Notes: generated by a model not told the origin, from the letters alone. A DNA stretch of 64,000 nucleotides from an uncultured Gammaproteobacteria bacterium (GCA_964397755.1 CAYNJY010000004.1:1117-65116), one strand, 5' to 3'. Shown: positions 1,414 through 18,398, counted from the first letter of the stretch. Program-made: numbers and translations.

Positions 1414-3234
1414 TCAGAGGGAGGCGGTTTTTTCTAGCTTCGCAAGTTTCTCCGTCAGAACCCGAATCGTCTGTTGCAACACCTCCGAAGCGTTCTCGTC
1501 ATCCGCTGTTTGGAGCTTACTCGTCTCCTGTCGTATCTTCGACTTTATTGCAACGCGCTGAAACTCAACAAGCGCGGTGTTCCATTGCCGGACCATGAGC
1601 TCCTCAGCCGAGAGAAACTCGGCAATGTCCCAGAGGAACGCTTCGTCGATCGTCGGGAGAAGCTCTTTGGGTACGGTCCCGGTGAAATCTTTTATGAAAA
1701 ATGTGCTGTTCGTCAAAAGAAACGGTTGGAGCTCCTCAAGGGTTCGACGAACTGCTGGTTGGGATATGAGATCCGCACCTCCCTCCTCTAAAAACTCATC
1801 AAAAAACTCCCGCGTTTTCCCTTGCAAGATAAACGCGAGGAGGTATACTTCGAGCTTTTCCTGGCGGCTGCCGGCAGGCATCTGAAAGGAGACCTCGGCC
1901 GGTTTCACCCCGGGCGCGACCTTTACCCGCGCCACGCCGTCGCTCACAGTATCCTCCGAAACAGCGAGGCTTGTTGCGAGCTTCCGAATGTAGTGGCCCT
2001 GGACGACCGGATTTTCGATTTTAGAAAGGATCGGGAAGAGCTCTTCGCTCACCTTCTTCTTGCCAAAAGCAGTGGTTGCATCAAAACGCTTGGTTGCTGA
2101 CGTTATGAAGTAATCGTAGATAGGCACAGCCGTTTCAATTGCCTTTTTCAGAAGCCCGGGGCCCTCTCGCGCCGCTTCGTCCGGGTCTTTCCCCGCGGAA
2201 AGCTGTACCACTCGCATGTCAAAACCCGCTGCCTCGGCAATCTCGATGCCGCGCCGTGCTGCCGCATCGCCTGCCGGATCAACATCCAAGGCAAACGTCA
2301 GCCGTTCGGCAAAGCGCCGAAGGAGTCGCGCGTGACCTTCGGTGAGCGCCGACCCTTTTATGGCAACCGTGTTGCCGATGCCAGCTTGGAAGGAGGAAAT
2401 CACATCCATCTCGCCTTCCATAACCACCGCCTCACCGCTTTTTTGGATCGCGTCTTTGGTCACATCCAGACCGTAGAGGACGTTGCCTTTCACATAGACC
2501 GGCGTTTCAGAGGTGTTAATATATTTTGCTTCCTGTCGGACTTGTCCTAAGGAGCGAAGCGACGAAGGATCGAGAACTCTTCCGGCAAATCCGACGACGT
2601 TGCCACGGTGATCTTTCAGGGTAAACATGACTCTGCCGCGAAAACGGTCATAAAAAAGGTTCTTCGCTCTTGGTGCTCGGTTCATGGTTCTCATGACTAA
2701 GCCTGCTGTCTCCAAGAGTTCCTCATCATAACCCTTCTTCTTTAAAAATTTTAAGAGTCCGTCCCAGTCCTTTGGACTGTACCCTAGGGTGAATGTTTTT
2801 ATCGATGTATCAGAAATACCCCTACCCTTGAGATACAAACGTGCTTTCTCGCCGACGGCGTGCGTGGTGAGGAGGTAGTGGTAGTATTCGCTGGCCAAGT
2901 GGTTCACCTCGTAGAGCTCTTGTTTGAGCTTTGCCTGCGGGCTGTCTGCTGGCCTTCGTTCGAGCTTGACGCCCGCGCGGGCAGCAAGTGTTTCGAGGGC
3001 CTCCGGAAAATCCACATGCTCAAAGAGCATGACAAAGTCAAAGATCGACCCGCCGCGGCCGCAGCCAAAACAATGGAACGTCTGGCGATCCGGAGACACG
3101 ATAAAAGAAGGGGTTTTCTCCGCGTGGAACGGACACAACGCCTTAAAGTTGTGGCCGGCTTTTTTGAGCGCCACGCGCTCGCTGACAATCTCAACGATGT
3201 TGAGCCTCGCCTTGACGTCGTCAATGTCGCTCAT
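1414..3234 (-). CDS. dnaG: DNA primase
   Basis: 606 aa. N-terminal CHC2 zinc finger ([20 protein letters not shown]) followed by a TOPRIM region. Located upstream of rpoD. Confidence 0.9.
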
Positions 3235-3305
3235 CGTGAGGGGAGAATAGCACGAAAGAGAAAAAACGTCTAATGGACGCGACTCGTTGTCTCAGTGACC
3301 ATACT

Positions 3306-3536
3306 CTATCGCCATGTAGTGTTATACTTTCGGTGTTTCGACAATGGGGAGAGGGAAAGGGGCGCTGCTGTTCCATCACGATCAAGGAACCCGCCGGGGA
3401 GTGCCCACTTACCGGATTCGAGCAGATCGCCGACGCGCTTAATCAAGAGAAGCTTCCCGTGCTTTTCGACGATCGCGTGAGTAACGATATGCCGAAGCGA
3501 CGCTCTGTAGCCCTTTTCAAACGTACAAGTGATCAT
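3306..3536 (-). pseudogene. NUDIX hydrolase N-terminal fragment (probable remnant)
   Basis: 76 aa ORF with LLIKRVGDLLESGKWALPGGFLDRDG. This resembles the start of a NUDIX fold, but the Nudix box (REx2EE) is not completed before the stop. Confidence 0.25.
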
Positions 3537-3658
3537 ACATTTATGATACGCCTTTGTGGCTCCGAACGAGTACGACGGATAATGGTAACACGGTGACGAG
3601 TTTTGTATATTATACGAAAACGTGCTAATTTTTGTTTATTTTGGATCAGTCTTGTATC

Positions 3659-3747
3659 TGGCGGAGGATGTGGGACTCGAACCCACGATACCCTTGCGGG
3701 TAAACGCGCTCTCCAAGCGCGCGCCATAGCCACTAGGCGAATCCTCC
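3659..3747 (-). tRNA. tRNA-Ser (anticodon GGA)
   Basis: Cloverleaf read from the sequence. Acceptor stem GGAGGAT/ATCCTCC, anticodon loop TTGGAGA, long variable arm, T-arm GGGTTCGAGTCCC, encoded CCA. Confidence 0.8.
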
Positions 3748-3897
3748 ATTATCACGAGGCACATTCAGCTTCTCAAAGGCAACCGATAGTTGCCTTTTAA
3801 TATCTCTTTTCCCATCACTCGACTTTAAGTACTTCTCTCTTCGTAGAGCATCGTCCTTATATAAATATCCCTCATAGTGAATCAGTTGCGCTGGAAG

Positions 3898-4017
3898 CTA
3901 ACGTTTGGTTGATTCAACAATTCCTTTATTGTGTTCACCTACCCTTCGTTTCAAATCGTCAGAGTGTCCAATATAGAGATTACGATTTTTCAACAACAAA
4001 ATATACACGTAATGCAT
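3898..4017 (-). CDS. GIY-YIG nuclease family protein, truncated or frameshifted
   Basis: Internal Met begins MHYVYILLLKNRNLYIGHSDDLKRRVGEHNKG, a GIY-YIG motif as in the YhbQ/UPF0213 family. The frame stops after about 39 aa. The next frame continues in GIY-YIG-like sequence (QLIHYEGYLYKDDALRREKYLK...) down to the tRNA-Ser. Confidence 0.4.
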   Translation of the reverse strand: MHYVYILLLKNRNLYIGHSDDLKRRVGEHNKGIVESTKR

Positions 4018-4188
4018 AGAATTCAGTACGGGACGAACCCGTGCCGCCCCGAGTTCATCTCGGGGCGAACTCGCGCGTGCCTTGCGGCACATCTCTTCTC
4101 CAAAGAGACGCAATGGGCCAACTATGCGATCCCACCACTCGTTTGGATTATACCATTCTCGCTCGTCTTTCCGTGCTATACTGTGCTC

Positions 4189-5097
4189 ATGTCTTCCCGT
4201 ACGAAGGCCCTGCTTGCGATGACCCTCGCCACCCTCCTCTGGTCAACTGCAGGGCTTTCCAAAATCCTCGTCCTGGCGCTCGACCCTTTTACTGCCGGCT
4301 TTCTCCGGTTCTTTGTCGCATCGCTCGTTGTTCTTCCGTTTTTCTTACGAGAAAAACGGAAGCGGGGGACATTCGCCGACCTCATCCCGGTCGGGATTTT
4401 TTCTACGGTAAACGTCGCCTTGTACTTTTGGGGACTCTCCCTCTCAACAGCCAACGCCGCAGCGATCATCTACAGTGCCATGCCGCTCGTCGTTGCCATC
4501 CTTGCCAAACGAATAATTAAAGAAAATGTGACGCCCAAAAAACTCCTGGGCATACTCATCGGGTTTACCGGTGCGCTCTTTGTCGTCGTCCTTCCGCTCC
4601 TTGAAAAAGGTGCCGTGGTGTCCGGAAACCCTTTCGGGAATGTGCTTTTTGCCGTCGCGGTGTTGGCGTGGTCTTCGTATACGATCACATCCAGACAAGC
4701 GCTGAACCGGGGGTACTCGCCGCTCTCCGTGAGCGCAGTCTCCATACTCACCTCGTGTGCGGTCTTTTTCTTTCTTGCTCTCCCGCACTATAGCCCTCTC
4801 TATGTTTCAGTAATCCTTCAGCCCGCGATGTTCCTTCTCCTGCTCCACATCTCGATACTCGTTACCGTTGGGACATTCTTCCTCTACCAGTGGGCGCTAC
4901 AACACTCATCGGCCACAACCGTGTCGCTCTATATTTACTTTCTTCCGCCGATCTCGGTCGTCATCAACGTCATCTTTTTAGGGGAAAAAATTACGACGGG
5001 GTTCGTCATCGGTAGTGCCCTCGTTCTCCTTGGTGTGTTTCTGGCAACAGGAAGCAATCTTACCTCCGAAGTAAGGTCGTGGTTTCGGAGACGCTAG
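4189..5097 (+). CDS. DMT/EamA family transporter
   Basis: About 300 aa polytopic membrane protein with two EamA-like halves. Start moved to ATG 4189 (MSSRTKALLAMTLATLLWSTAG); the upstream extension in the ORF track is not membrane-like. Confidence 0.7.
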   Translation: MSSRTKALLAMTLATLLWSTAGLSKILVLALDPFTAGFLRFFVASLVVLPFFLREKRKRGTFADLIPVGIFSTVNVALYFWGLSLSTANAAAIIYSAMPLVVAILAKRIIKENVTPKKLLGILIGFTGALFVVVLPLLEKGAVVSGNPFGNVLFAVAVLAWSSYTITSRQALNRGYSPLSVSAVSILTSCAVFFFLALPHYSPLYVSVILQPAMFLLLLHISILVTVGTFFLYQWALQHSSATTVSLYIYFLPPISVVINVIFLGEKITTGFVIGSALVLLGVFLATGSNLTSEVRSWFRRR

Positions 5098-5102
5098 AGG
5101 CT

Positions 5103-5675
5103 TCACTTTGCAAACTCTTCGTGGAGCGTGTCGCGGATATTCTTCCACCAGTCTTGGGAGTTTGTTTTTACGAGATCTTGCGCAAGCGCAACCGCCTCGG
5201 GAATTCGGAGGCGCTTGATGTTCGCCTCAAGCCACTCGCCGGCATGGGTGTTGCCTTTTTCAATAAGGAGTTTGAGCTCAACGAGAAACGCGATCACGTT
5301 TGCTTCATAGACGATTTTCGCCTCGAGTGTTTCCCTCTTTTCGTAGGTATCAAGTGATGCAAGGAGTGTATCGTCAACGCCCCCAAAAATATCCCGGTTG
5401 GCTTTGCCCTGATCACGCGTCATATAGAACTTTGCGATTTTGTCAAGGTCCCCGGTCCGCGCCTCGTGGAAATCATGAAAGACCGCCATGGTAAGCACCG
5501 TCTCAAGATTAGCGTGAAGCTCGCGGCCCAAGAAGTACGCGATAACCGAGGTCATAAACGTGTGCTCGCCCACGCCTTCCTGGTTGTCCCCCAAAATCTG
5601 CCAGCCGGTCCGCAACATCCGCTTGACGACCGCCGCTTCATAAATGAGGTTGGTTGTGTTTTTTGTATTTTTCAT
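5103..5675 (-). CDS. HD-domain phosphohydrolase (YfbR-like 5'-deoxynucleotidase family)
   Basis: 190 aa with HD motif region (AVFHDFHEARTGDL) and upstream His (GEHTFMTSVIAYFLG). Confidence 0.7.
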   Translation of the reverse strand: MKNTKNTTNLIYEAAVVKRMLRTGWQILGDNQEGVGEHTFMTSVIAYFLGRELHANLETVLTMAVFHDFHEARTGDLDKIAKFYMTRDQGKANRDIFGGVDDTLLASLDTYEKRETLEAKIVYEANVIAFLVELKLLIEKGNTHAGEWLEANIKRLRIPEAVALAQDLVKTNSQDWWKNIRDTLHEEFAK

Positions 5676-5718
5676 ACTAAGGCGTTTACGCAGAAAGTTT
5701 TCGCAGAAAATTATTCTG

Positions 5719-5790
5719 CGCCTCTGACCAGAATCGAACTGGTATCACCGGCTTCGGAGGCCAGTACTCTATCCGTTAAGCTACAGAGGC
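5719..5790 (-). tRNA. tRNA-Arg (anticodon CCG)
   Basis: 72-nt cloverleaf. Acceptor GCCTCTG/CAGAGGC, anticodon loop CTCCGAA, T-arm CCAGTTCGATTCTGG. CCA is not encoded. Confidence 0.75.
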
Positions 5791-5930
5791 CTGATTCGGG
5801 CGAGAGGGCCGCGTTCTATCCATTGTCAGCCAGAGGCTGATCCGCCTTCGGCGGAAACTGCAGGAGCTGGGTAACGTTGTCTTGTATTATAGCTCCTACC
5901 TCCTACTCTCTGCTACACGTTGCCTTATCA

Positions 5931-6347
5931 TTATTGAATCTTCACTAGATCTCCGTCTAAAACAACAGGCTGCATGGCGTGCATTTCCGTCTTGTAGTCC
6001 GTGTCCGGCACCGGGTGGATGAGGAAAATCTTTTTCCCTAGCCAGAACGCGAGCCCCATCTCAAGGAACGTATTGCCGCCGATATAGCCTTCGGTGCCCT
6101 TTTTGTCGTAGTTAAGGACCAGAATTGCGTCTGATTTTTCAATTTTCCGAAAGTGCTCCCGGATGAAGTCGTACTCAATTTTGGCGGTGATGCGCTCTTC
6201 ATCGGTAGTGGGGTGGACGAAGCCTTGTGTGTCTATGAGCTCTAAGCTCTTTGGCACAAGGACTGTGAATCCTCTTGCTTCAAGCACTTTTTGCGCCTCT
6301 CGCATTTTTTCCTGAAACTGCATACTGCCGCAGATGGTGATAGTCAT
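5931..6347 (-). CDS. nucleoside 2-deoxyribosyltransferase-like protein (Rcl/DNPH1-like fold)
   Basis: 138 aa. The pattern ICGSMQF...AILVLNYDKKGTEGYIGGNTFLEMGLAFWLGKKIFLI fits the deoxyribosyltransferase-like Rossmann family. It sits next to an HD nucleotidase, consistent with nucleotide salvage. Confidence 0.5.
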   Translation of the reverse strand: MTITICGSMQFQEKMREAQKVLEARGFTVLVPKSLELIDTQGFVHPTTDEERITAKIEYDFIREHFRKIEKSDAILVLNYDKKGTEGYIGGNTFLEMGLAFWLGKKIFLIHPVPDTDYKTEMHAMQPVVLDGDLVKIQ

Positions 6348-6413
6348 AGGTTAAAAATACAGGTTTCAACCGACTATTTTGTGCTTCTTCAAAAAAGCCT
6401 GCCCTGCACTAGG

Positions 6414-6500
6414 CGGAAGGAGCGAGATTTGAACTCGCGTGGGCCTTGCGACCCCCAAGGTTTTCGAGACCTGGCCGTTTAACCACTCCGGCATCCTTCC
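6414..6500 (-). tRNA. tRNA-Ser (anticodon CGA)
   Basis: 87-nt tRNA with long variable arm. The anticodon loop CTCGAAA is identical to E. coli serU. T-arm GCGAGTTCAAATCTCGC. Confidence 0.75.
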
Positions 6501-6541
6501 TACATCAATCGCCCAAAACGGTGGGTTCTAGCCGGTTTATG

Positions 6542-6614
6542 CGCGCCCGAAAGGAGTCGAACCTTCAATCGCCAGGTCCGCAACCTGGTGCTCTATCCAT
6601 TAAGCTACGGGCGC
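6542..6614 (-). tRNA. tRNA-Arg (anticodon GCG as read)
   Basis: 73-nt cloverleaf. Acceptor GCGCCCG/CGGGCGC, anticodon stem CCAGG/CCTGG with loop TTGCGGA, T-arm GAAGGTTCGACTCCTTT. Confidence 0.75.
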
Positions 6615-7091
6615 ATGTAAATTGTTATCTCTAAAGATATCTGCGCAGGCGTATGCATACTGCATAATCTGCTCTTTGAGATATACGCTATTATACCGCA
6701 CAAAACATATTCCCCCAACATTCTTGCGAGATCTCTTCTCTTTGCTTCTTTTCTTCCTATAAGATTTATTAAACTGATTTTCTGGTATTTTCAGTAATTT
6801 AGACCAGTAACGTTTTGCATCTCTCTCCTTATGATACCAATGCAGATGAAGTGCTATCCTAAATTTTTTCTCATCAAGGTCGAAACTTCTTCTCAAAAGA
6901 GTAACAAATAATAAAGCCAGTTCCGGGTCTGTGTTCGCGAATCTCACCACGCCCCGGGTTTTGGTACCCTCTGCCCAATAGAGCAGAGAGAGTAAAATTC
7001 TCGAAATAGTTCGATTCTTACTGAGATTCAAGAAGCAAAACTTAAGAAGGCTTTTCGAGAGGGATTTTTTGGGTGAGCCAGTGGGCGGCAT
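6600..7091 (-). CDS. hypothetical protein, possibly a degenerate LAGLIDADG-type homing-endonuclease-like protein
   Basis: 163 aa, the same size as single-motif LAGLIDADG enzymes. ILLSLLYWAEGTKTRGVVRF resembles the LLYLAGFVDGDGSI helix-turn-strand with the acidic residue kept. The body is AT-rich (about 38 percent GC). Its last five codons and stop lie inside the 5' part of tRNA-Arg. Confidence 0.3.
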   Translation of the reverse strand: MPPTGSPKKSLSKSLLKFCFLNLSKNRTISRILLSLLYWAEGTKTRGVVRFANTDPELALLFVTLLRRSFDLDEKKFRIALHLHWYHKERDAKRYWSKLLKIPENQFNKSYRKKRSKEKRSRKNVGGICFVRYNSVYLKEQIMQYAYACADIFRDNNLHAPVA

Positions 7092-7560
7092 TGTCTACCC
7101 AATTTTTATCCGGCTCCTCACGGAACGGAACGTGGCGCTCAACAAATTCTCGTACATCATCTTTCTTTAGACTTCCCAGTAAAACAACGACTCGGGAAGA
7201 AAGAAGTGGCCGCAAAATGAGAAGCGACTGACTCCATTGTTCTTCAAACCAAAAATCAGCTATCTCCTCCCAACGATAAAAGTGCCCTGCACTTTCTATA
7301 CCGAGACTCGTAATCCTGTGCTTCACTTCTTCCGGGGGGACGGTTGATAACACGTAGACAAAAAAAACAAGAGATAGCATCGCAATAATGAGAGCGTATT
7401 CCCGGGCAAATACAAAGATCACAGAAAGGAAAAAAACTATAGCGGCGATGTTGGTGAAGTACTCGCGATTCCGTTTTTTAAAAAGGCGGGACGGAGAGAC
7501 CCACGAAAGGTATTCTTCCTCTCGCCTTTCCTCAATCTTTGGTGCAGCCGAAGTTTCCAT
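7042..7560 (-). CDS. hypothetical membrane protein
   Basis: About 172 aa from internal Met (METSAAPKIE...). It has two predicted TM helices then a soluble domain, with no recognisable motif. Confidence 0.4.
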   Translation of the reverse strand: METSAAPKIEERREEEYLSWVSPSRLFKKRNREYFTNIAAIVFFLSVIFVFAREYALIIAMLSLVFFVYVLSTVPPEEVKHRITSLGIESAGHFYRWEEIADFWFEEQWSQSLLILRPLLSSRVVVLLGSLKKDDVREFVERHVPFREEPDKNWVDNAAHWLTQKIPLEKPS

Positions 7561-7895
7561 ATTGAAGTCAGTATACACTAGGTCATTGCAGACGAAAAGA
7601 GGTCGCAGTGTCATGAGTCACGCGCCCGAAGCCGAATCTTTCTTCGTCCCGGCTTAGCCGGGACATTCTGGCGAAGGAGAGGAAATGGGAAATTATACTC
7701 GTACACTAAATTGTGCTTTCCAACCGATCTCTTCCTCTTATCAATTTTGTTTATGATACGCTTACTATGATAAAATTGCAGCCAAGACTTCATATGAGGT
7801 CTCAAACAAAACGGGTGTGGTTATACGATCAAAAGAAAATGAACGAGTATTTGCAGATAGTTACTACATATAACCCACGCTTGTTGAAAAATTTT

Positions 7896-7985
7896 GGAGG
7901 AGTCCGATAGTTGGTCAATTCGGGAGGTTTGCTAAACCTCTGAGCCGTAAGGCTCACGTGGGTTCGAATCCCACCTCCTCCGCCC
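7896..7985 (+). tRNA. tRNA-Ser (anticodon GCU)
   Basis: Acceptor GGAGGAG/CTCCTCC, anticodon loop TTGCTAA, long variable arm, T-arm GTGGGTTCGAATCCCAC, and a 3' CCA. Confidence 0.8.
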
Positions 7986-7986
7986 A

Positions 7987-8073
7987 GGAGGGTTGGCCGA
8001 GCGGTTCAAGGCGCTAGTCTTGAAAACTAGTGGGAGCAATCCCTCACAGGTTCGAATCCTGTACCCTCCGCCA
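7987..8073 (+). tRNA. tRNA-Ser (anticodon UGA)
   Basis: It starts one nucleotide after the preceding tRNA. Anticodon stem CTAGT/ACTAG with loop CTTGAAA, long variable arm, T-arm ACAGGTTCGAATCCTGT, encoded CCA. Confidence 0.8.
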
Positions 8074-8114
8074 GTTGGGAAATGAAAGAGTTGGCTCGCC
8101 AAAATCGAGGATAA

Positions 8115-8198
8115 TGTAGTCTCGTCAAGCCAAGCGTGCAGACGGTTGCCAAGATCGCCAAAGCGTTAAAAGTTTCTATAGCGGAATTATTAAGCTAA
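8115..8198 (+). pseudogene. C-terminal remnant of an XRE-family helix-turn-helix regulator
   Basis: A 27-codon frame, CSLVKPSVQTVAKIAKALKVSIAELLS-stop, matches the recognition-helix region of HTH_XRE proteins (..PSL.TLLKIAKALGVSLDELL). A TAA stop immediately precedes it in frame, so the N-terminal part is missing. Confidence 0.4.
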
Positions 8199-8220
8199 AA
8201 GAGCGTCAAGGGGATAAATT

Positions 8221-8658
8221 ATGAAAAGATTATTTAGAAGAATAGCCCTGCACCATACAATTCCCGAGTATCTTATTTTTGATGGACTTGGTTTTGGCTG
8301 GGCAGGCTACTTTGTTTGGCAACATCAATTAATTTGGGCATTAGCTTCTGTTATAGTTCTCCCGCTTATTGGAACCTTACTTGTGTTAAAGAAAGACGAA
8401 GAGGAATACGCCGAGACTCCTCTTGGAAGATTTGCGTTAAGCCATCTTGCTCCTTGGAGCGTTGTTTTCCATATTCTTGGTTATGCTGTTCTTATTTATA
8501 GCCTTTGGATGCATTCAGGATTTTACATATTTTTAGCTATTTCATTCATTCTTTTGGGACATCTTCGGGATAAAACTACGAAAACTGACCAGTCAATATC
8601 CCCTAAGATGGATAACAAGGGAATTGATACTGTGGTCTCAAGTGAGGAAAAGAATTAA
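8221..8658 (+). CDS. hypothetical membrane protein (AT-rich gene)
   Basis: 145 aa with 4 predicted TM helices. It is clearly more AT-rich than the surrounding genes, and it sits right after the tRNA-Ser pair and the XRE remnant. Confidence 0.5.
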   Translation: MKRLFRRIALHHTIPEYLIFDGLGFGWAGYFVWQHQLIWALASVIVLPLIGTLLVLKKDEEEYAETPLGRFALSHLAPWSVVFHILGYAVLIYSLWMHSGFYIFLAISFILLGHLRDKTTKTDQSISPKMDNKGIDTVVSSEEKN

Positions 8659-8797
8659 GGCAATGGTCGAGATCTAAGATTGATGTAAAGAATTATTGAA
8701 AGAATTTGCCGCCAAAGAGTAAAATCAGTTCGCCCCAGTAGCAGTCCCGCTTGGCGGGACGCTACGGGGTAAAGATATTTTTCAAACAGACACCGCT

Positions 8798-9442
8798 CTA
8801 ATCTCTACTTTTAATGACGAGTGCAATTCCTTTGTGGACGTTAATTGTTGCGCTTTTTCTCTTCAACTCATTGCTGATGCCTCGAGATGTGCCTCGTTTC
8901 AGTTGGATGCCAACTAACGGATAGGTAAATCCAGAAAGAGACACAGTTACAGATTGTGTATGTGGTAAAAGCGAAAGGTATCGATATTGTTGTTTTTTGT
9001 TTACGCGGTACGAATCCTTTACCAGGATTATTTCATTTCTCTCATCGACAATCGCTGCTTTAATTCCTTTACTCAAAAATTTTTCAAGCATGTGTACTGC
9101 AGCGATGGTGTGATCTAGACGAGTTCCGATACCGCCAAAAATAATTACCTCTTTCGGTTTGAGACGAAAGGAATAATCGACAGCGAGTTCAAGGTCGGTA
9201 GCGTCTTTCTGCGCTGAAAACATAAGCACCTTTTTTGCTTTCTTTTTAATAAGCAGTAGTTCTCTCTTTGTCACCGAATCAAAATCTCCGAGTGCAACAT
9301 CGGGAGTAAGTTTATTTTTGATAAGCCACCGCGCGCCTCGATCAACACCGATTATTTTTTGGGCACGTCTGATTTGGCGAATCAGGCTTTTGTCCAACAC
9401 TCCTCCAGCAATTATCGCAACAGTAAGTCCATTTTTTTTCAT
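8798..9442 (-). CDS. thiamine pyrophosphokinase
   Basis: 214 aa. It has the GDFDS motif (VALGDFDSV), the GGIGTRLDH region and a C-terminal thiamin-binding-like domain. Confidence 0.7.
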   Translation of the reverse strand: MKKNGLTVAIIAGGVLDKSLIRQIRRAQKIIGVDRGARWLIKNKLTPDVALGDFDSVTKRELLLIKKKAKKVLMFSAQKDATDLELAVDYSFRLKPKEVIIFGGIGTRLDHTIAAVHMLEKFLSKGIKAAIVDERNEIILVKDSYRVNKKQQYRYLSLLPHTQSVTVSLSGFTYPLVGIQLKRGTSRGISNELKRKSATINVHKGIALVIKSRD

Positions 9443-9445
9443 ATA

Positions 9446-10141
9446 CTACCGAGCCATGGTGACACCCCAGACAAATTGAGTACCACTTCTTTTCAAAACA
9501 TTGGCTGCCGATCGCATAGTTGCACCGGTCGTAAAGACATCATCAAATAAAAATACATTGTTCCATTGTTTCATTGCTACATTGTTAGCTGCAAAAACTT
9601 TTTCCATATTTTTAAGCCTCTCCTCCCTCTTCTTCACTTCGACTTGCGGAGTCGTTTTACGAACTCGATACAGCAAATCCGTTCGCATGGGAATCTGCAA
9701 TTGTTGGGCAATGAGCGCGCCCAATATTTCTGCCTGATTATAGCCTCTTTCTCGAAGACGAGTAGGATGAAGCGGAATGGGAATTAAAAAAGAGCTTAGG
9801 GGCTTAGTGCTTAGCAGCTTAGTAAGATCAACAAAAGAAGAGGAAGGAATAAGGGTAGTAAATTCTTGGGCGAGATCGTAGACGTAGCGGTATTTCAATG
9901 CTTTGACCGCCTTTCGAATACTGCCGTCATAGTGGAAAAAGCTTGTTAAACCATCGAGGCCGTAGCGGGTTCTACACCGCGGGTGCGTTGCGCCGCCAAT
10001 GGCAGGCCGCTCGCAGACCGGACAGATCGCCTCATTTCGTTCGATAACCCGAATAATTGAAGTACATCGTTGACAAAAATATTTCCCACCTTTTCCGCAC
10101 CCCAAACAGCGCTTCGGAAAAACAATATCAAGAATCTTCAC
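9446..10141 (-). CDS. comFC: ComF family protein (double zinc ribbon plus phosphoribosyltransferase domain)
   Basis: CxxC...CxxC pairs (RCLGCGK, CQRC, CPVCERP) and a PRTase motif (VFLFDDVFTTGATM). The start is moved to GTG 10141, which follows a strong AAGGAGG Shine-Dalgarno. The longer ORF in the track (to 10273) overlaps the tmRNA gene. Confidence 0.8.
   Translation of the reverse strand: MKILDIVFPKRCLGCGKGGKYFCQRCTSIIRVIERNEAICPVCERPAIGGATHPRCRTRYGLDGLTSFFHYDGSIRKAVKALKYRYVYDLAQEFTTLIPSSSFVDLTKLLSTKPLSSFLIPIPLHPTRLRERGYNQAEILGALIAQQLQIPMRTDLLYRVRKTTPQVEVKKREERLKNMEKVFAANNVAMKQWNNVFLFDDVFTTGATMRSAANVLKRSGTQFVWGVTMAR
9556..9592. repeat. CAATGNNN-type octamer repeat (reverse orientation) inside comFC
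   Basis: acattgttccattgtttcattgctacattgtt. It encodes NNVAMKQWNNV just before the PRTase motif. Confidence 0.75.
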
Positions 10142-10203
10142 AAAAAGACCTCCTTGTCTATTGTACAAGGAGGTGCTTGCACTGAGACACTCTTGTGTCG
10201 AAG

Positions 10204-10590
10204 TGGAGACGGAGAGGAGTGAGCTCTCGTCCAGAATGACGATCCCAACACATCTACAGGCGTAGTCAATCATTGTTGTCGTCTCTTCCTGATCCGATTG
10301 ACAGGAAAGAAAAGATCAAGACGTATTGTTCTTCGTCTTAATTGGAACGTCGAACCATTAAGACTGCATCCCGGCTTTGTTTACACCTCAAGAATGTCAC
10401 CGAGAAAACGTTCAAGAGATGGCCTTACGCCTCTGCAAAGAGATATGCTCTCGGTGCTCGAGATGCGTAAAAGGCTGCTTCAGCTTGTTCAGCATCAGCA
10501 TTTATTGGTTTGACGGTTGTTTAACGACCACCCATCAAGGTCGGCCTGCAGTGTTAAAGAGCATCACTCTGTCGAATCTTGTACGTCCCC
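10204..10590 (-). ncRNA. ssrA: tmRNA (ssrA)
   Basis: The minus-strand 5' end is GGGGACGTACAAGATTCGACAGAG, nearly identical to the Bacillus subtilis tmRNA 5' end (GGGGACGTTACGGATTCGACAGGG). The 3' end is GGAC-GAGAG-CTCACTC-CTCTC-CGTCTCC-A. This matches the B. subtilis tRNA-like domain architecture (GGAC GTGGG TTCGACT CCCAC CGTCTCC A) and pairs with the 5' GGGGACG. It lies immediately upstream of smpB on the same strand. Confidence 0.7.
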
Positions 10591-10595
10591 GTTGT

Positions 10596-11039
10596 TTATT
10601 TCACCTTCCCCCGAAACTCAACTTCCAGTTCTCTTCGCTGGTCTTCCCGCTTTATGGCCTCCCGCTTCTCGTACTTCTTTTTCCCACGGGCAAGACCAAT
10701 CTCAAGCTTGATCCGGGAGCCTCTAGTATACCAAGCAAGCGGAACCAAGGTCAAACTGGCTCCGTCGATCTTGCCCTTCAAACTCATTATTTCCTTTTTG
10801 TGCAAAAGAAGCTTCCGTGTCCGTTTGGGGTCGTAGCCCTCCGGACGCGCAAAGATGTAGGGAAATATCTGGGCATTGACGAGGTACGCTTCTGAACCGA
10901 TGACCCGCACAAACGATCCCTCTAAACTCGCGTGCCCGCCGCGCAGCGACTTGACCTCCTGACCGGTCAGGTGCACCCCTGCCTCGAGGCGATCAGTAAT
11001 CGTATAGTCATAGGTGGCTTTGCGATGTACGATTCTCAT
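10596..11039 (-). CDS. smpB: SsrA-binding protein
   Basis: Start at internal ATG 11039 (MRIVHRKATYDYTI...). The body and the basic C-terminal tail (KKKYEKREAIKREDQRRELE) are characteristic of SmpB. Confidence 0.9.
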   Translation of the reverse strand: MRIVHRKATYDYTITDRLEAGVHLTGQEVKSLRGGHASLEGSFVRVIGSEAYLVNAQIFPYIFARPEGYDPKRTRKLLLHKKEIMSLKGKIDGASLTLVPLAWYTRGSRIKLEIGLARGKKKYEKREAIKREDQRRELEVEFRGKVK

Positions 11040-11047
11040 GGTCGTTT

Positions 11048-12826
11048 CTACTTCAAGGTGAGTGCGTAGATCTTCCCCTCTGCAAGAAGGAGAATTTTCC
11101 GCTGTGCCTCTGAGACGACCATTTGGGTCGGAATGAGGCTCCCTTCCCACACGTACTGGGCCAGGTACAAGCCGTCTTTGTCAAGAACCACAATCCGCTT
11201 GTTCACGCGATCAAGGACATAGGCGTTCTTTGCGCTATCGCTCGTGTAGACGAACAGATCACCCCCAAACGCCGGCTCAACGCCTTTGGGTAGAAACGTC
11301 ACGTCTCTTCCCTGCACGAATCGCACAATTTTCCCGTCCGGCGTTCCCACCCATACTGATCCGTCAATTGCCATCCCTGTTGCCTTCGACAAATCCGGAA
11401 GCGTATCGGGATTGAGGTACTCGCGACGTTCGGAAAAACCGTTTTCTGTGGCAACGTACTTCCAAATACGACTTTTCTCTCTGTCCAGGAGGTAAAGATT
11501 GCCCCCGTACGAAACAACACTCGATATCGTACCCCACTCTGCGTCTTTCCGAACAATGTCTGCTACCACTTTGTTGTCGCTCGTTCGTATCTCATGAATG
11601 CCGCTCGGGACGAGGATGTAAATCTTGTCTCCGTGGGAGGCAACGGCCGTAGCACCGGACAACCGTTCTCCACTCAACACCACGGCGCCGCTTTTGTTAG
11701 AAACCGACACCGCATAGACTGCATTCACGGCGTAATCCACAATGCCAAGCATGTCTCCAGAAAGAGCAAAACCAGAAACGACGGCGCCTTTGCGCAGTAA
11801 GCTCACGTCATAAAACAGCTCTGGTTCTGTCTGTGTGATGTGCATTGCAGACGTCAGATTTGCCACGGCATCTTCGTAAAGCTCAATCACCTGTCTTCCC
11901 TCTTTGGACCGCTTCGGGACACTCAAAAGGAGTGGCGCGAGGGTCTCTTTTGCCATGGTGAGCCGTTCCCGGCCTTTCACTGGATTGAGATCCAGTATCG
12001 CCATGCCTTCATCGAAGGCGCGCTGCGCTCCGGTGAGCGCCTCGCGTACGAGCGTGTTTCTCTTTACCCCAACCTGTTTCTGAATACCCAAAACCACGCT
12101 CCCGATAAATAGTATTGTCGAGGCAAGTGCGATAAGGGCGTAGAGACTGAAGCGTAGAGGAAAAACGCTTCCAGTGCGCCTCCATAGAGCCCCAAACATA
12201 TCTCTTCTCCTCGCTGACTCCGGCGGTCGTGCTTGCGCAACAACTGTGTGTGCCACTGTCTCCTCTGCCGTTTCAATGGAGGAGACTTGGAATATGAGTG
12301 CCGCTCCGCCTTCGCCACCCTGTTTCCCATGGAGCAAAACGGTAAGCTTTTCCGCGACGTCCGCCGGCGGAAGATGGTCAAAGATGTGCCCTAGCTCATC
12401 CGTTGAAAGCGCCATAAGAAATCCTCGTGTAGCAAGAAGGAGACTGTCCCCTCCGGCTACGTTTCCCGAGATCTCTCCCATACCATCAACGAGGGTGGCT
12501 ATCTTCTCTCCGCGCTTAAGGTACACGCGCCCACTGCCACGAACCACGAGGTACAACACCGCGCCAACAGGAACAAGGAGCAGAAGTGAGCGCACCGAAC
12601 CATCTACCATGGAATCTGCAATAGCCGCAAGCCCTCCAAGACTTTTTGGAGGAAAGACGAGGAGTCGAGACAATTTTGTCAAAAGTCCCACACCGTGCTG
12701 ACGCGCAACAGGATCCTCCGTCTCAACCTCTAATACACCAAATGCTGCCGGTGATTGGAGTACCTGTCCCCAGACGGTCTCTGTCGAGTGTCCGACAACC
12801 GTTGCAATGACTGGCCGAATCTGCAT
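11048..12826 (-). CDS. hypothetical membrane-anchored protein with repeat-rich C-terminal domain
   Basis: Start at ATG 12826 (MQIRPVIATVV...). About 260 aa cytoplasmic region, one TM helix (LYALIALASTILFIGSVVLGI), then about 300 aa of beta-rich repeats (possible propeller). No motif recognised. Confidence 0.55.
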   Translation of the reverse strand: MQIRPVIATVVGHSTETVWGQVLQSPAAFGVLEVETEDPVARQHGVGLLTKLSRLLVFPPKSLGGLAAIADSMVDGSVRSLLLLVPVGAVLYLVVRGSGRVYLKRGEKIATLVDGMGEISGNVAGGDSLLLATRGFLMALSTDELGHIFDHLPPADVAEKLTVLLHGKQGGEGGAALIFQVSSIETAEETVAHTVVAQARPPESARRRDMFGALWRRTGSVFPLRFSLYALIALASTILFIGSVVLGIQKQVGVKRNTLVREALTGAQRAFDEGMAILDLNPVKGRERLTMAKETLAPLLLSVPKRSKEGRQVIELYEDAVANLTSAMHITQTEPELFYDVSLLRKGAVVSGFALSGDMLGIVDYAVNAVYAVSVSNKSGAVVLSGERLSGATAVASHGDKIYILVPSGIHEIRTSDNKVVADIVRKDAEWGTISSVVSYGGNLYLLDREKSRIWKYVATENGFSERREYLNPDTLPDLSKATGMAIDGSVWVGTPDGKIVRFVQGRDVTFLPKGVEPAFGGDLFVYTSDSAKNAYVLDRVNKRIVVLDKDGLYLAQYVWEGSLIPTQMVVSEAQRKILLLAEGKIYALTLK

Positions 12827-17414: not shown

Positions 17415-18398
17415 TTAAAATAGATGCTCTGTCGCAAGCCGTGCTCCTCGCGCTGGTTTGTTCACAATAATCTGCTGTACTCCATTAACTTCGCGTACTC
17501 TTTCTAAAACTTTCGTTTCATCCTTCGCTTCGCAAATAAGATGAACATTAGGGCCTGCGTCGATGGTGAAATATACCGGTATTCCTTCTTTTCTCCAATC
17601 ACCGGCCGCTTTCATAATTTTTTTGGTACCCTCGTTCCAGTACAGAAGAGGTGGATTCTGTGTTTGCATCACCTGATGCATAGAGAGCGCGTCTTCTTCA
17701 ATTGCCGGACCGAGGGTAGACAAATTTTTTCCTTCTAATCCTTGCGTAACTCGTTTAATACGGTCTGGTAATTCCTGTAATCGTTTCTCAAAAAAAGGAC
17801 TCGTGTGTATCCCATTGTGTCCGGCGGAAGACGAAACATCTTTTGCGTTATTTTCCACAATGACCAATATATCTCGCAGATCCCAGTGCGTTGAGGGAAA
17901 AAGCGAATACGCATACGAATCATCTGACGTTTCGCCTGTTTTCCACTCAACAAATCCATCGGGAATCGACCGGCACGCAGAACCGGATCCAACGCGAGCG
18001 AGAATTGTTAATTCTTTTTCAGAAAGTGTCAACCCTAATGCTGTAGTTGCAGCGACTGTGAGGGCGGCAAATCCAGACGCAGAGGATGCTGCACCCGAGG
18101 ATTTCGGAAATGAATTTTTTGTTGCAACCCGGGCAAACAAGTTCTTCTCTAATTTTTCTCGTATCACATCAAGCTGTCGAACTACTCGTGCAACTTCAGA
18201 ATCACTGAATCCCCCCTTTTCAAGAAGATCAACCCTGTCCTTTAATAAATCTTTTGAAAATTCAACAGTTGTTGTCGTCGTCGAAGCACTAAGATTCATC
18301 GAAATGGAAGTATTATGGGGAAGCCGAAGTTTTGCATCTTTTCGACCCCAATATTTGATAAACGCAATGTTTGCCGGAGCGATTGCTGTGGTTCTCAT
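17415..18398 (-). CDS. mvaD: diphosphomevalonate decarboxylase
   Basis: 327 aa, N-terminal APANIAFIKYWGRKD and a GHMP-kinase fold. It is the last gene of the mevalonate operon. Confidence 0.85.
   Translation of the reverse strand: MRTTAIAPANIAFIKYWGRKDAKLRLPHNTSISMNLSASTTTTTVEFSKDLLKDRVDLLEKGGFSDSEVARVVRQLDVIREKLEKNLFARVATKNSFPKSSGAASSASGFAALTVAATTALGLTLSEKELTILARVGSGSACRSIPDGFVEWKTGETSDDSYAYSLFPSTHWDLRDILVIVENNAKDVSSSAGHNGIHTSPFFEKRLQELPDRIKRVTQGLEGKNLSTLGPAIEEDALSMHQVMQTQNPPLLYWNEGTKKIMKAAGDWRKEGIPVYFTIDAGPNVHLICEAKDETKVLERVREVNGVQQIIVNKPARGARLATEHLF

What the first reader, a model, noticed from the sequence alone, without database searches (positions are those of the whole stretch)
5676..8700. 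tRNA cluster with AT-rich islet: LAGLIDADG-like ORF terminating inside tRNA-Arg, XRE remnant and low-GC membrane gene
Five tRNAs (Arg-CCG, Ser-CGA, Arg-GCG, Ser-GCU, Ser-UGA) lie within 2.4 kb. Between them the GC content drops to about 38-40 percent (6615-7100 and 7620-7890), and again in the 8221-8658 gene. The ORF at 6600-7091 has a degenerate LAGLIDADG-like helix-turn-strand (LLYWAEGTKTRGVV), is AT-rich, and runs into the D-arm of tRNA-Arg where its stop codon lies. Directly after the tRNA-Ser pair there is a 26-codon fragment matching the recognition helix of XRE regulators, preceded by an in-frame stop. Together these look like decayed remains of one or more elements that used the tRNA genes as integration sites.
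Basis: partly seen in the sequence, partly recalled or inferred. Interest (0 to 1): 0.6.

Follow-up and report, generated by a model that had tools for sequence, protein, structure and literature searches.

The report
Selfish gene docked before tRNA genes
The AT-rich ORF that runs into tRNA-Arg is a truncated copy of a large, unnamed Patescibacteria gene family whose members always sit directly in front of one particular tRNA gene, are present or absent between close relatives, and so look like a new kind of homing-type selfish gene living in tRNA leaders.

Summary
In detail: tRNA positions and anticodons, the low-GC stretches, the ORF whose stop lies in tRNA-Arg(GCG), and the XRE remnant are all real.

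ORF 6600-7091 gave no LAGLIDADG match by any sequence or fold test. It is a 5'-truncated copy of an unnamed family ("X", about 230 aa) made of an N-terminal HTH, a long helix and an orphan alpha/beta domain. The family has 3259 clusters at 50% identity.

- In 85 of 87 distinct copies examined, X lies 40 nt or less upstream of a same-strand tRNA gene. The other two are cut by contig ends. In 52 of the 85, the stop codon lies inside the tRNA.
- Subfamilies track tRNA identity: Arg-GCG, Trp-CCA, Thr-GGU and others.
- Filled and empty sites alternate among close relatives. Intact copies are under purifying selection, and X is AT-richer than its host in 64 of 68 cases. Some copies are decayed.
- A GIY-YIG pseudogene docks the same way into tRNA-Ser(GGA).
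- There are no att repeats and no integrase. mem190 and TPK are native genes. The XRE fragment plus mem145 is variable cargo.

Best reading: a homing-endonuclease-like selfish gene carried in tRNA 5' leaders. Nuclease activity is inferred, not shown.

The parts
6600..7091 (-). Truncated copy of family X. Only 6600-7034 is homologous to the family; 7035-7091 is an out-of-family start that overlaps the upstream gene. The HTH and linker (about 88 codons) are missing. The last 15 nt are tRNA-Arg(GCG) nt 1-15.
   Evidence: 122 homologs, nearly all about 231 aa. Homology to P0002 starts at its residue 89, which is window 7034. The closest relatives L102 and L103 are full length, with mem190 upstream in both and, in L102, tRNA-Arg(GCG) downstream; L103's contig ends before the tRNA position. 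GC is 38.1%.
6541..6614 (-). tRNA-Arg(GCG), the docking partner of the X-Arg subfamily.
   Evidence: All 17 genome loci with an X-Arg homolog have this tRNA immediately downstream on the same strand.
7042..7614 (-). mem190, a native two-helix membrane protein. It is the upstream flank of the X slot and is intact.
   Evidence: 534 homologs, mostly Gottesmanbacteria. The synteny mem190 -> X -> tRNA-Arg, or mem190 -> tRNA-Arg, is seen in relatives.
6412..6500 (-). tRNA-Ser(CGA), part of the conserved backbone downstream of tRNA-Arg(GCG).
5718..5790 (-). tRNA-Arg(CCG), part of the conserved backbone.
3733..4017 (-). GIY-YIG nuclease pseudogene with an in-frame TAG at 3898-3900. It reads into tRNA-Ser(GGA), and its final stop is tRNA nt 13-15. 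GC is 34.5% over 3898-4016, the part upstream of the internal stop.
   Evidence: Pfam GIY-YIG E = 1.2e-15 across the internal stop, profile positions 1-73 of 78. Frames are shown.
3659..3747 (-). tRNA-Ser(GGA), the docking partner of the GIY-YIG pseudogene.
7895..8073 (+). tRNA-Ser(GCU) at 7895-7986 and tRNA-Ser(UGA) at 7987-8073. This pair is conserved next to mem190 in relatives.
   Evidence: The same pair lies beside mem190 in L108 and L116.
8082..8198 (+). Remnant of an XRE-type HTH gene: 38 codons with an in-frame TAA at 8112-8114. Only the last ~21 positions of the HTH_3 domain survive.
8221..8658 (+). mem145, a small membrane protein at 38.1% GC. It is variable cargo in the slot between TPK and the 3' end of tRNA-Ser(UGA).
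   Evidence: 26 homologs of about 123 aa at 59-98% identity, found in unrelated contexts in genomes of 35-42% GC. In L100 it follows an ArsR-type HTH gene. It is absent from the same slot in relatives.

Best explanation
ORF 6600-7091 is a 5'-truncated relic of a selfish, site-specific gene family, here called X. X has an N-terminal transposase/resolvase-like HTH, a long helix, and a conserved orphan alpha/beta domain. The family is native to Patescibacteria.

Each X subfamily occupies one niche: the 5' leader of one particular tRNA gene, ending at or inside the tRNA.

**Shown**
- The docking rule.
- The specificity of subfamilies for tRNA identity.
- Presence/absence polymorphism at exactly the same site between close relatives.
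- Purifying selection on intact copies.
- AT-rich composition relative to the host.
- Occasional decayed copies, of which the window copy is one. It is a clean deletion of about 320 nt running from just after the mem190 stop to X codon ~89.

**Inferred**
- X is a DNA endonuclease of the homing type. The HTH would read the conserved 5' part of the tRNA gene in an empty allele, and the C-terminal domain would cut there. The domain carries the invariant E-G-x-K and N-x-D-P motifs and a basic loop.
- Repair from a filled allele, for example DNA taken up by these competence-gene-bearing bacteria, would copy X in.
- Sitting in the leader makes X harmless, because RNase P removes the leader from the tRNA. 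That is the same logic as a homing gene hiding in an intron or intein.
- Where the stop codon lies inside the tRNA, RNase P cleavage would leave a non-stop X message. That would keep X protein levels low.

The GIY-YIG pseudogene at tRNA-Ser(GGA) uses the same niche. The XRE fragment plus mem145 is separate accessory cargo on the 3' side of tRNA-Ser(UGA).
For: **Family and architecture**
- 122 homologs of about 231 aa.
- A C-terminal-only profile finds 3259 clusters at E <= 1e-3 and 1343 at E <= 1e-10, nearly all 215-240 aa with the domain at residues ~90-220.
- Only the N-terminal HTH matches known families.

**Docking**
- 17 of 17 X-Arg loci have tRNA-Arg(GCG) directly downstream.
- 78 of 80 X-Trp loci have tRNA-Trp(CCA) directly downstream. 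The other two are cut by contig ends.
- An HMM scan of all loci finds further paralogs in front of tRNA-Thr(GGU), Met, Tyr, Val and Ser.
- Non-redundant totals: 85 of 87 copies lie 40 nt or less upstream of a same-strand tRNA, and 52 have the stop inside the tRNA.
- For every type with two or more copies, the nearest homolog in another locus always precedes the same tRNA type: 54/54, 18/18 and 4/4.

**Presence/absence**
- L029 and L036 are 87.5% and 80.6% identical in DNA on the two flanks. L029 has 7 nt between tRNA-Tyr and tRNA-Thr(GGU), where L036 has 607 nt that are essentially one X ORF.
- Unbiased occupancy is 5/30 for Thr(GGU), 1/22 for Tyr and 1/5 for Ser(GGA).
- Five groups of loci anchored on mem190 were sampled. 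Four have tRNA-Arg(GCG) 26-38 nt after mem190 with no X. The fifth has a Phd/YefM toxin-antitoxin module in the slot.
- Filled and empty states interleave among mem190 sequences that are 70-80% identical.
- L082 has tRNA-Arg(GCG) without X.

**Selection and composition**
- X-Trp in L029 versus L036 gives omega 0.19, with dN 2-3.5 times that of neighbouring genes.
- The window copy versus L102 gives omega 0.09.
- X has lower GC than the rest of its locus in 64 of 68 cases, by 5.2 points on average.

**Decay series**
- Full-length copies in L102, L103 and L008. A truncated copy in the window. Frameshifted copies in L005, L046/L047 and L062. Empty sites in L104, L107, L108 and L113.

**Same niche used by a known nuclease family**
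- The GIY-YIG pseudogene.

**Precedent**
- T4 SegB is a free-standing homing endonuclease in a tRNA cluster that recognises a tRNA motif (PMC2330249).
Against: - No nuclease fold or motif could be confirmed. Foldseek against the PDB gave nothing below E = 6e-3 for two high-confidence models; the top hits were OmpA-like YfiB at TM 0.24-0.45. The only hint is a set of weak BFVD hits to a homing endonuclease and to intein-containing proteins, best E = 0.036.
- The H-x-H-x-Y-H block, conserved in most members, is absent in the X-Thr paralog, so the catalytic residues are unknown.
- X-Thr and X-Trp have diverged in step between the same genome pairs. The data therefore fit old residence with repeated precise loss as well as they fit recent homing. 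No case of clear recent horizontal transfer was found.
- No copy was found in viral contigs.
- Co-transcription with the tRNA is inferred only. The consensus scanner called no promoter in the relevant spacers. The -10-like hexamers in the four empty spacers were seen by eye.
- The X-Arg and X-Trp samples were chosen by the presence of X. Their near-100% linkage therefore says nothing about how common X is.
Confidence: 0.55

Rival explanations
1. X is a host DNA-binding factor of the tRNA operon, such as a dedicated regulator or a factor acting on the precursor RNA. It would be inherited vertically and simply lost in many lineages. It would not be mobile and would have no nuclease activity.
For: - The HTH domain and the long, probably dimerising helix.
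- Purifying selection, with omega 0.09-0.19.
- Divergence of X-Thr that tracks X-Trp between the same genomes.
- No recognisable nuclease fold.
- Weak Foldseek hits to L7Ae-like and RNase P subunit chains, at probability about 0.25.
Against: - X is dispensable. tRNA-Arg(GCG), tRNA-Thr(GGU) and tRNA-Trp all function without it in close relatives.
- It is hard to see why single housekeeping tRNAs would each need a private paralogous regulator.
- X is systematically AT-rich compared with its host, evolves faster than its neighbours, and shows frameshifted or truncated copies.
- The same slot is used by a toxin-antitoxin module in L116 and by a GIY-YIG gene in the window.
Confidence: 0.2
2. X is a new minimal site-specific transposase or recombinase. 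It would move as a one-gene element by cut-and-paste or copy-out into the 5' edge of tRNA genes, not by break-induced homologous repair.
For: - The N-terminal HTH is most similar to transposase and resolvase HTHs: HTH_23, HTH_7, HTH_Tnp_1, the Sleeping Beauty PAI domain, and the N-termini of IS3, IS21 and IS630 transposases.
- Conserved Y, S, H and K residues are possible nucleophiles.
- Target choice is precise.
Against: - The inserted segment is essentially the ORF alone. In L036 the 607 nt between two tRNAs leave no room for terminal repeats or hairpins.
- No target duplication or repeat was found.
- Each tRNA type has its own diverged subfamily, and usually only one copy per site. This is unlike a transposing insertion sequence.
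- The candidate S and H residues are not conserved in the X-Thr paralog.
Confidence: 0.12
3. One reading: 6615-8700 is the decayed remainder of one or more integrase-type elements that integrated into tRNA genes. It would include a degenerate LAGLIDADG endonuclease, an XRE regulator and a foreign membrane gene.
For: - Low GC.
- The XRE remnant starts 9 nt after the 3' end of tRNA-Ser(UGA).
- mem145 is variable cargo whose relatives sit in lower-GC genomes.
- The low-GC stretch ends near the 3' end of a tmRNA gene, which is another classic integration site.
Against: - No repeat of any tRNA end, and no integrase domain in the nine ORFs from 3.9 to 10.3 kb that were scanned.
- mem190 and TPK, which lie inside or beside the supposed islet, are native syntenic genes.
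- X sits at the tRNA 5' end in its family-typical position.
- The LAGLIDADG tests failed.
Confidence: 0.1

Closest known systems
Phage T4 SegB, a free-standing GIY-YIG homing endonuclease in the T4 tRNA gene cluster (PMC2330249)
   Same: Both are stand-alone genes lying between tRNA genes and present or absent between relatives. SegB's recognition site includes a conserved tRNA motif, so the gene spreads together with the flanking tRNA genes. The modular design is also shared: a DNA-binding module plus a separate catalytic-looking domain.
   Different: SegB is a GIY-YIG enzyme in a phage and recognises the T-psi-C stem-loop. X is chromosomal in Patescibacteria and has an orphan C-terminal domain. 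It is glued to the tRNA 5' end, often with its stop codon inside the tRNA. It forms many subfamilies, each tied to one tRNA identity. Activity has not been tested.
LAGLIDADG homing endonucleases, for example I-CreI and those in CPR rRNA introns (PMC11270868)
   Same: X has a helix ending in an invariant acidic residue followed by Gly (YWAEG), then a short hairpin. Its domain size is about 130 aa. Its behaviour is selfish and it targets conserved RNA genes. CPR genomes are known to be rich in such enzymes.
   Different: No sequence, profile or fold match was found. The predicted order of elements is alpha-beta-alpha-beta-alpha-beta-beta-alpha, against alpha-beta-beta-alpha-beta-beta-alpha for LAGLIDADG. 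X is not intron- or intein-borne.
WhiA, a domesticated LAGLIDADG scaffold plus HTH (from my own knowledge, not tested here)
   Same: WhiA combines an HTH with a degenerate endonuclease-like domain. It shows that such fusions can become host regulators.
   Different: WhiA has its HTH at the C-terminus and two LAGLIDADG-like domains. It is conserved as a single-copy core gene and is not tRNA-linked or variably present.
Genomic islands and prophages that integrate at tRNA or tmRNA 3' ends
   Same: They use tRNA genes as landmarks, and their cargo is AT-rich.
   Different: They need an integrase and leave a direct repeat of the tRNA 3' end. Here the docking is at the 5' end, and there is neither a repeat nor a recombinase.

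Membership tests
LAGLIDADG homing endonucleases | Significant match to a LAGLIDADG sequence family (Pfam LAGLIDADG_1, _2, _3 or Hom_end) or to solved members. | tested here: not met
   There was no Pfam hit for the window ORF, for 25 homologs or for 7 paralogs. NCBIfam and PHROGs gave none. PDB profile searches hit only the HTH or nothing.
LAGLIDADG homing endonucleases | An alpha-beta-beta-alpha-beta-beta-alpha core fold. | tested here: not met
LAGLIDADG homing endonucleases | A motif helix ending in a conserved catalytic Asp or Glu followed by Gly. | tested here: inconclusive
   E41-G42 of the window ORF is invariant across 113 sequences, and the equivalent E111-G112 (P0060 numbering) is invariant in a 40-sequence superfamily set. 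It lies at the end of a helix. This is a short motif resemblance only.
Homing endonuclease genes (functional class) | The gene sits at a fixed site that is empty in related genomes, with clean boundaries. | tested here: met
   L029 versus L036. mem190-anchored loci with 26-38 nt spacers against inserts of about 745-760 nt. Filled and empty states are interleaved.
Homing endonuclease genes (functional class) | Site-specific cleavage of the empty allele, followed by gene conversion. | not testable with these tools
   This needs protein expression and cleavage or cross experiments.
Homing endonuclease genes (functional class) | A cycle of invasion, decay and loss, seen as degenerate copies alongside intact, selected ones. 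| tested here: met
   Truncated or frameshifted copies occur in the window, L005, L046/L047 and L062. Intact copies show omega 0.09-0.19.
tRNA-targeting integrative elements | An integrase or recombinase gene inside the element. | tested here: not met
   Nine ORFs between 3.9 and 10.3 kb were scanned against Pfam. They resolve to EamA, HD, deoxyribosyltransferase-like, TPK, ComF-like and GIY-YIG, or give no hit (X, mem190, mem145).
tRNA-targeting integrative elements | A direct repeat of the tRNA 3' end marking the far junction. | tested here: not met
   The repeat finder on 3000-12000 found none. Searches with up to 3 mismatches for the tRNA-Ser(UGA) 3' end and the tRNA-Arg(GCG) 5' end each found only the tRNA itself.
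XRE / Cro-C1 HTH regulators (for 8082-8198) | A complete HTH_3 domain of five helices, about 55 positions. | tested here: not met
   Only profile positions 35-55 are present, at E = 3.6e-4 and 20.9 bits. An in-frame stop lies at 8112-8114. It is a remnant, not a gene.
GIY-YIG nucleases (for 3733-4017) | A match to the GIY-YIG catalytic domain. | tested here: met
   E = 1.2e-15, profile positions 1-73 of 78, when read across the internal TAG. The internal stop makes it a pseudogene.

The most novel reading that the evidence does not exclude
X is a previously unrecognised class of site-specific nuclease with a new catalytic fold. It homes into the 5' leaders of specific tRNA genes in Patescibacteria. 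It would use the tRNA promoter for transcription and RNase P processing to stay harmless. Where its stop codon lies inside the tRNA, it would also use RNase P cleavage and tmRNA rescue to throttle its own expression. That would make tRNA 5' leaders a third 'safe haven' for homing genes, beside introns and inteins. It would also supply a set of natural enzymes with ready-made specificities for different tRNA genes.
Probability: 0.35. Interest if true: 0.85.

Novelty: new variant of a known kind. Interest (0 to 1): 0.66.

Why it matters
If X is a nuclease, it adds a new enzyme family and a new genomic niche, the tRNA 5' leader, to the biology of homing elements. It would explain a recurrent and so far unannotated ~230-aa gene in thousands of Patescibacteria genomes. 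It would also offer compact DNA-targeting proteins whose natural targets are universally conserved tRNA genes.

The conserved placement of the stop codon inside the tRNA makes a specific idea testable: a coupling between tRNA processing, non-stop mRNA rescue and control of a selfish gene.

Even if X proves to be non-catalytic, the strict link between subfamily and tRNA identity is a rule that annotation pipelines and studies of tRNA operon evolution in reduced genomes should know about.

For this window specifically, most of the 'islet' is native backbone with three small slots of decayed or accessory genes. It is not a genomic island.

Tried and rejected
1. **LAGLIDADG membership.** Tested with Pfam, NCBIfam, PHROGs, PDB profile searches, hhalign against I-CreI, and two Foldseek PDB searches. 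All were negative. Only weak BFVD hits to a homing endonuclease and to intein-containing proteins remain.
2. **HUH-type nuclease.** I considered this because of the LHLHxYH block on a beta strand. I dropped it because the His residues are replaced in the X-Thr paralog (ALNVFDD) and no Rep or TnpA fold hit appeared.
3. **Other catalytic folds.** Serine recombinase, Toprim, PD-(D/E)xK and tRNA-splicing-endonuclease readings were considered from motif and topology. Nothing supports any of them.
4. **att sites.** None found.
5. **Phage origin.** Two IMG/VR scans found no relative.
6. **Promoters.** The consensus scanner found no more sites than in shuffled sequence in the window, and nothing in the key spacers of L008 or L104. 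Co-transcription therefore stays an inference.
7. **Paralogs elsewhere in the window.** A tblastn hit near 17622 is a chance LLYWNEGTK in a mevalonate-pathway-like gene.
8. **GIY-YIG docking as a general rule.** Not supported. In other loci GIY-YIG genes sit just after tRNA-Trp rather than before a tRNA.
10. **Correction to the notebook.** An early note said that 11 of 17 X-Arg loci overlap the tRNA by exactly 15 nt. The correct counts are: 8 at exactly 15 nt, 1 at 16 nt, 14 of 17 overlapping by 10-51 nt, and 3 ending 30-32 nt upstream.

Full report
**1. What is in the window**

ARAGORN and Rfam agree on six tRNA genes:
- tRNA-Ser(GGA) 3659-3747(-)
- tRNA-Arg(CCG) 5718-5790(-)
- tRNA-Ser(CGA) 6412-6500(-)
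- tRNA-Arg(GCG) 6541-6614(-)
- tRNA-Ser(GCU) 7895-7986(+)
- tRNA-Ser(UGA) 7987-8073(+)

Composition:
- The window averages 51.7% GC. The four 1-kb bins from 6001 to 10000 are the lowest in the 64 kb, at 41-46%.
- By feature, the X remnant is 38.1% and mem190 (7042-7614) is 45.5%.
- The 7615-7894 spacer is 40.7%, the XRE fragment 43.6%, mem145 38.1% and TPK 40.8%.
- The GIY-YIG remnant is 34.5%.

ORF 6600-7091(-) ends with GCG CCC GTA GCT TAA. Those 15 nt are nt 1-15 of tRNA-Arg(GCG).

**2. The ORF belongs to a large unnamed family and is truncated**

- A homolog search returned 122 proteins, nearly all about 231 aa, from Patescibacteria, chiefly Microgenomates and Gottesmanbacteria.
- They share three parts: an N-terminal three-helix HTH, a long helix, and a C-terminal domain. 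The domain has the conserved blocks LYWAEGxK, FANTDP, LHLHxYH, FWS and GGICF.
- Only the HTH matches known families: HTH_23, HTH_7, HTH_Tnp_1 and HTH_SB in Pfam, and transposase HTHs in the PDB.
- The C-terminal domain matches nothing in Pfam, NCBIfam, PHROGs or PDB sequences.
- A profile built from C-terminal-only sequences finds 3259 clusters (50% identity) at E <= 1e-3 and 1343 at E <= 1e-10, almost all with the same length and layout.

In the window, homology starts at residue 89 of the closest relative P0002. That is window 7034, 7 nt after the stop of the upstream gene mem190. No trace of the first 88 codons exists in any frame.

The two closest relatives are L102 and L103, at about 80% amino-acid identity. 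Both have the mem190 3' end, a spacer of about 70 nt and a full-length gene. L102 also has tRNA-Arg(GCG) downstream; L103's contig ends before that position. The window copy has therefore lost about 320 nt, covering the spacer, the HTH and the linker.

An independent Logan assembly shows the same junction. The remaining frame is intact. Its divergence from L102 is overwhelmingly synonymous (omega 0.09, with dS saturated). This shows past constraint but cannot date the deletion.

**3. The junction with the tRNA is the family's rule**

- All 17 genome loci with an X-Arg homolog have tRNA-Arg(GCG) directly downstream on the same strand. This holds even where the rest of the neighbourhood differs, for example where tRNA-Trp follows instead of tRNA-Ser.
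- In 14 of the 17 the ORF overlaps the tRNA by 10-51 nt. Eight overlap by exactly 15 nt, as in the window. Three end 30-32 nt upstream.
- The C-terminal '(V/A)PVA' seen in many homologs is simply the translated tRNA 5' end. It is not conserved where there is no overlap.

A second subfamily (alignment A5) was traced in metagenomes. In 78 of 80 loci it is followed at once by tRNA-Trp(CCA). The other two loci end before that position. There it sits between rpmG and tRNA-Trp.

An HMM scan of every ORF in the loci found more paralogs. They lie in front of tRNA-Thr(GGU), tRNA-Met, tRNA-Tyr, tRNA-Val(GAC), tRNA-Ser(GGA) and a predicted tRNA-Ser(ACU). L113 also has one before tRNA-Ser(UGA).

Non-redundant totals:
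- 85 of 87 copies lie within 40 nt upstream of a same-strand tRNA.
- 52 of those have the stop inside the tRNA.

Sequence clades follow tRNA identity without exception, wherever a type has two or more members.

**4. X is dispensable and variably present**

- L029 and L036 are 87.5% identical up to the last base of tRNA-Tyr, and 80.6% identical from the first base of tRNA-Thr(GGU) onward.
- Between those points L029 has 7 nt, while L036 has 607 nt consisting of an X paralog with a ~50-nt leader.
- Among tRNAs sampled without regard to X, occupancy is 5/30 for Thr(GGU), 1/22 for Tyr and 1/5 for Ser(GGA).

Six mem190 proteins of 65-69% identity to the window's were looked up, to sample the X-Arg slot without bias. 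They fall into five groups of loci:
- Four groups have tRNA-Arg(GCG) 26-38 nt after mem190, with no X.
- The fifth has a Phd/YefM toxin-antitoxin pair in the slot.

Judged by mem190 identity, filled, empty and otherwise-occupied sites interleave. For example, filled L008 is 79-80% identical to empty L108 and to L116, which carries the toxin-antitoxin pair. L082 also has tRNA-Arg(GCG) without X.

Other properties of X:
- Intact X evolves under purifying selection but faster than its neighbours. Omega is 0.19 and dN 0.188, against dN 0.05-0.09 for neighbouring genes.
- X is AT-richer than the rest of its locus in 64 of 68 cases.
- Decayed copies exist: the window, L005, L046/L047 and L062.
- X-Thr and X-Trp have diverged to a similar degree between the same genome pairs. 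Long residence with repeated precise loss therefore fits as well as recent spread.

**5. What the protein is**

Two AlphaFold models are confident: pLDDT 89.8 for the window ORF and 93.4 for full-length P0060.

Layout of the full-length model:
- HTH at residues 7-42.
- One long helix at 53-91.
- A compact domain ordered alpha, (bridge), beta, alpha, beta, alpha, beta, beta, alpha, with a basic loop (YRKKRSKEK...).

Fold comparison:
- Foldseek against the PDB found nothing better than E = 6e-3. The top hits were YfiB/OmpA-like domains at TM 0.24-0.45.
- BFVD gave a 'homing endonuclease' at E = 0.036, plus many intein-bearing proteins at low probability.

I treat the domain as an orphan.

Residues invariant across the superfamily alignment (E-G-x-K, the Asn of N-x-D-P, a Trp, a Lys, a Gly) are compatible with a metal-dependent active site, and they persist in the divergent X-Thr paralog. 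This is inference.

**6. How it most likely works**

- In the four empty sites, the 26-38-nt spacer before tRNA-Arg carries a -10-like hexamer 8-20 nt before tRNA +1. The hexamers are TATAAT, TACAAT and TAAAAT. This was seen by eye.
- In filled sites, a similar hexamer lies about 25-30 nt before the X start codon.
- The consensus scanner did not call these as promoters.

If they are the promoters, X lies inside the 5' leader of the tRNA precursor. That location costs the host nothing, because RNase P removes the leader. It also provides transcription and a highly conserved neighbouring sequence as a target.

This is the logic of homing genes in introns and inteins, and of T4 segB in a tRNA cluster (PMC2330249).

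I therefore favour a homing-type selfish nuclease gene with tRNA-specific subfamilies. Where the stop codon is inside the tRNA, RNase P cleavage would produce a non-stop message. A tmRNA/SmpB pair lies 3.6 kb away in this window. This step is speculative.

**7.

- **mem190** is native.
- **TPK** is also native. It neighbours the tRNA-Ser pair and mem190 in relatives, and it is AT-rich there too.
- **The XRE fragment and mem145.** The XRE fragment (8082-8198) keeps only the last third of an HTH_3 domain.
  - mem145 has 26 homologs at 59-98% identity in unrelated contexts, in genomes of 35-42% GC. In one locus it is preceded by a small HTH gene with a 4-nt overlap.
  - Neither is found in the equivalent slot of relatives.
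  - This pair is best read as accessory cargo, probably acquired, whose regulator has decayed. No integrase or att repeat accompanies it.
It is 34.5% GC over its upstream part and has an in-frame TAG. It reads into tRNA-Ser(GGA), with its final stop at tRNA nt 13-15. That is the same docking by a recognised nuclease family.

**8. Novelty**

Seven full-text searches found nothing on a tRNA-leader gene family in CPR bacteria. Work on CPR homing endonucleases concerns rRNA introns and does not mention tRNA. Source annotations call these proteins hypothetical, 'transposase' or 'XRE regulator'.

The behaviour is that of a known kind of element, the free-standing homing gene. The protein domain, the niche and the strict pairing with tRNA identity appear to be new.

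Noticed in passing
window 10201-10590 (-), with SmpB at 10596-11150 (-): Rfam finds a full-length tmRNA (134 bits) that ARAGORN did not report. The long ORF 9446-10273 (ComF-like) overlaps it, so that ORF's true start must lie further downstream. The 3' end of the tmRNA faces the low-GC stretch.
   Followed up: partly
window 3733-4017 (-): A GIY-YIG nuclease pseudogene with an in-frame TAG at 3898-3900 runs into tRNA-Ser(GGA). Its final stop is at tRNA nt 13-15, the same geometry as X at tRNA-Arg(GCG).
   Followed up: yes
window 6541-6614 and all X-Arg loci: These genomes carry tRNA-Arg with anticodon GCG. From my own knowledge, bacteria normally encode ACG, which TadA edits to ICG, and GCG is the archaeal habit. 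I did not check whether tadA or tRNA-Arg(ACG) exists elsewhere in these genomes.
   Followed up: no
L013 1178-1260, L113 829-913, L114 129-213: ARAGORN predicts a tRNA-Ser with anticodon ACU, which is unusual. In L013 an X paralog sits 16 nt upstream of it. In L113 a GIY-YIG gene follows it.
   Followed up: no
L116-L121, about 2560-3245: A Phd/YefM antitoxin gene plus a 91-aa partner occupy exactly the slot between mem190 and tRNA-Arg(GCG) that X fills elsewhere. The slot looks like a general landing place for selfish modules.
   Followed up: partly
L082 3177-4304 (-): A 375-aa ORF on the opposite strand abuts and overlaps the 3' end of tRNA-Trp. By eye it looks like the C-terminal part of a large serine recombinase, which would mean a conventional integrative element on the 3' side of a tRNA whose 5' side carries X. 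It was not scanned against any domain library.
   Followed up: no
window 4067-4086 versus 6431-6450: A 20-nt stretch, 90% identical to part of tRNA-Ser(CGA) (variable arm and T stem), lies in the spacer between the GIY-YIG remnant and the EamA gene. It is either a tRNA fragment or chance.
   Followed up: no
window 3659-8073 and L003, L009, L013, L017, L104, L116: All four Ser isoacceptors and two Arg tRNAs form a cluster that is conserved, with rearrangements, across Microgenomates. No other amino acids are represented in it.
   Followed up: partly
L065, L067, L069, L070 (about 70 nt after tRNA-Trp); L071 1379-1588: GIY-YIG genes lie just downstream of tRNA-Trp. Some match in two separate pieces, which suggests a frameshift or gap. 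These tRNA neighbourhoods collect more than one kind of small nuclease gene.
   Followed up: partly
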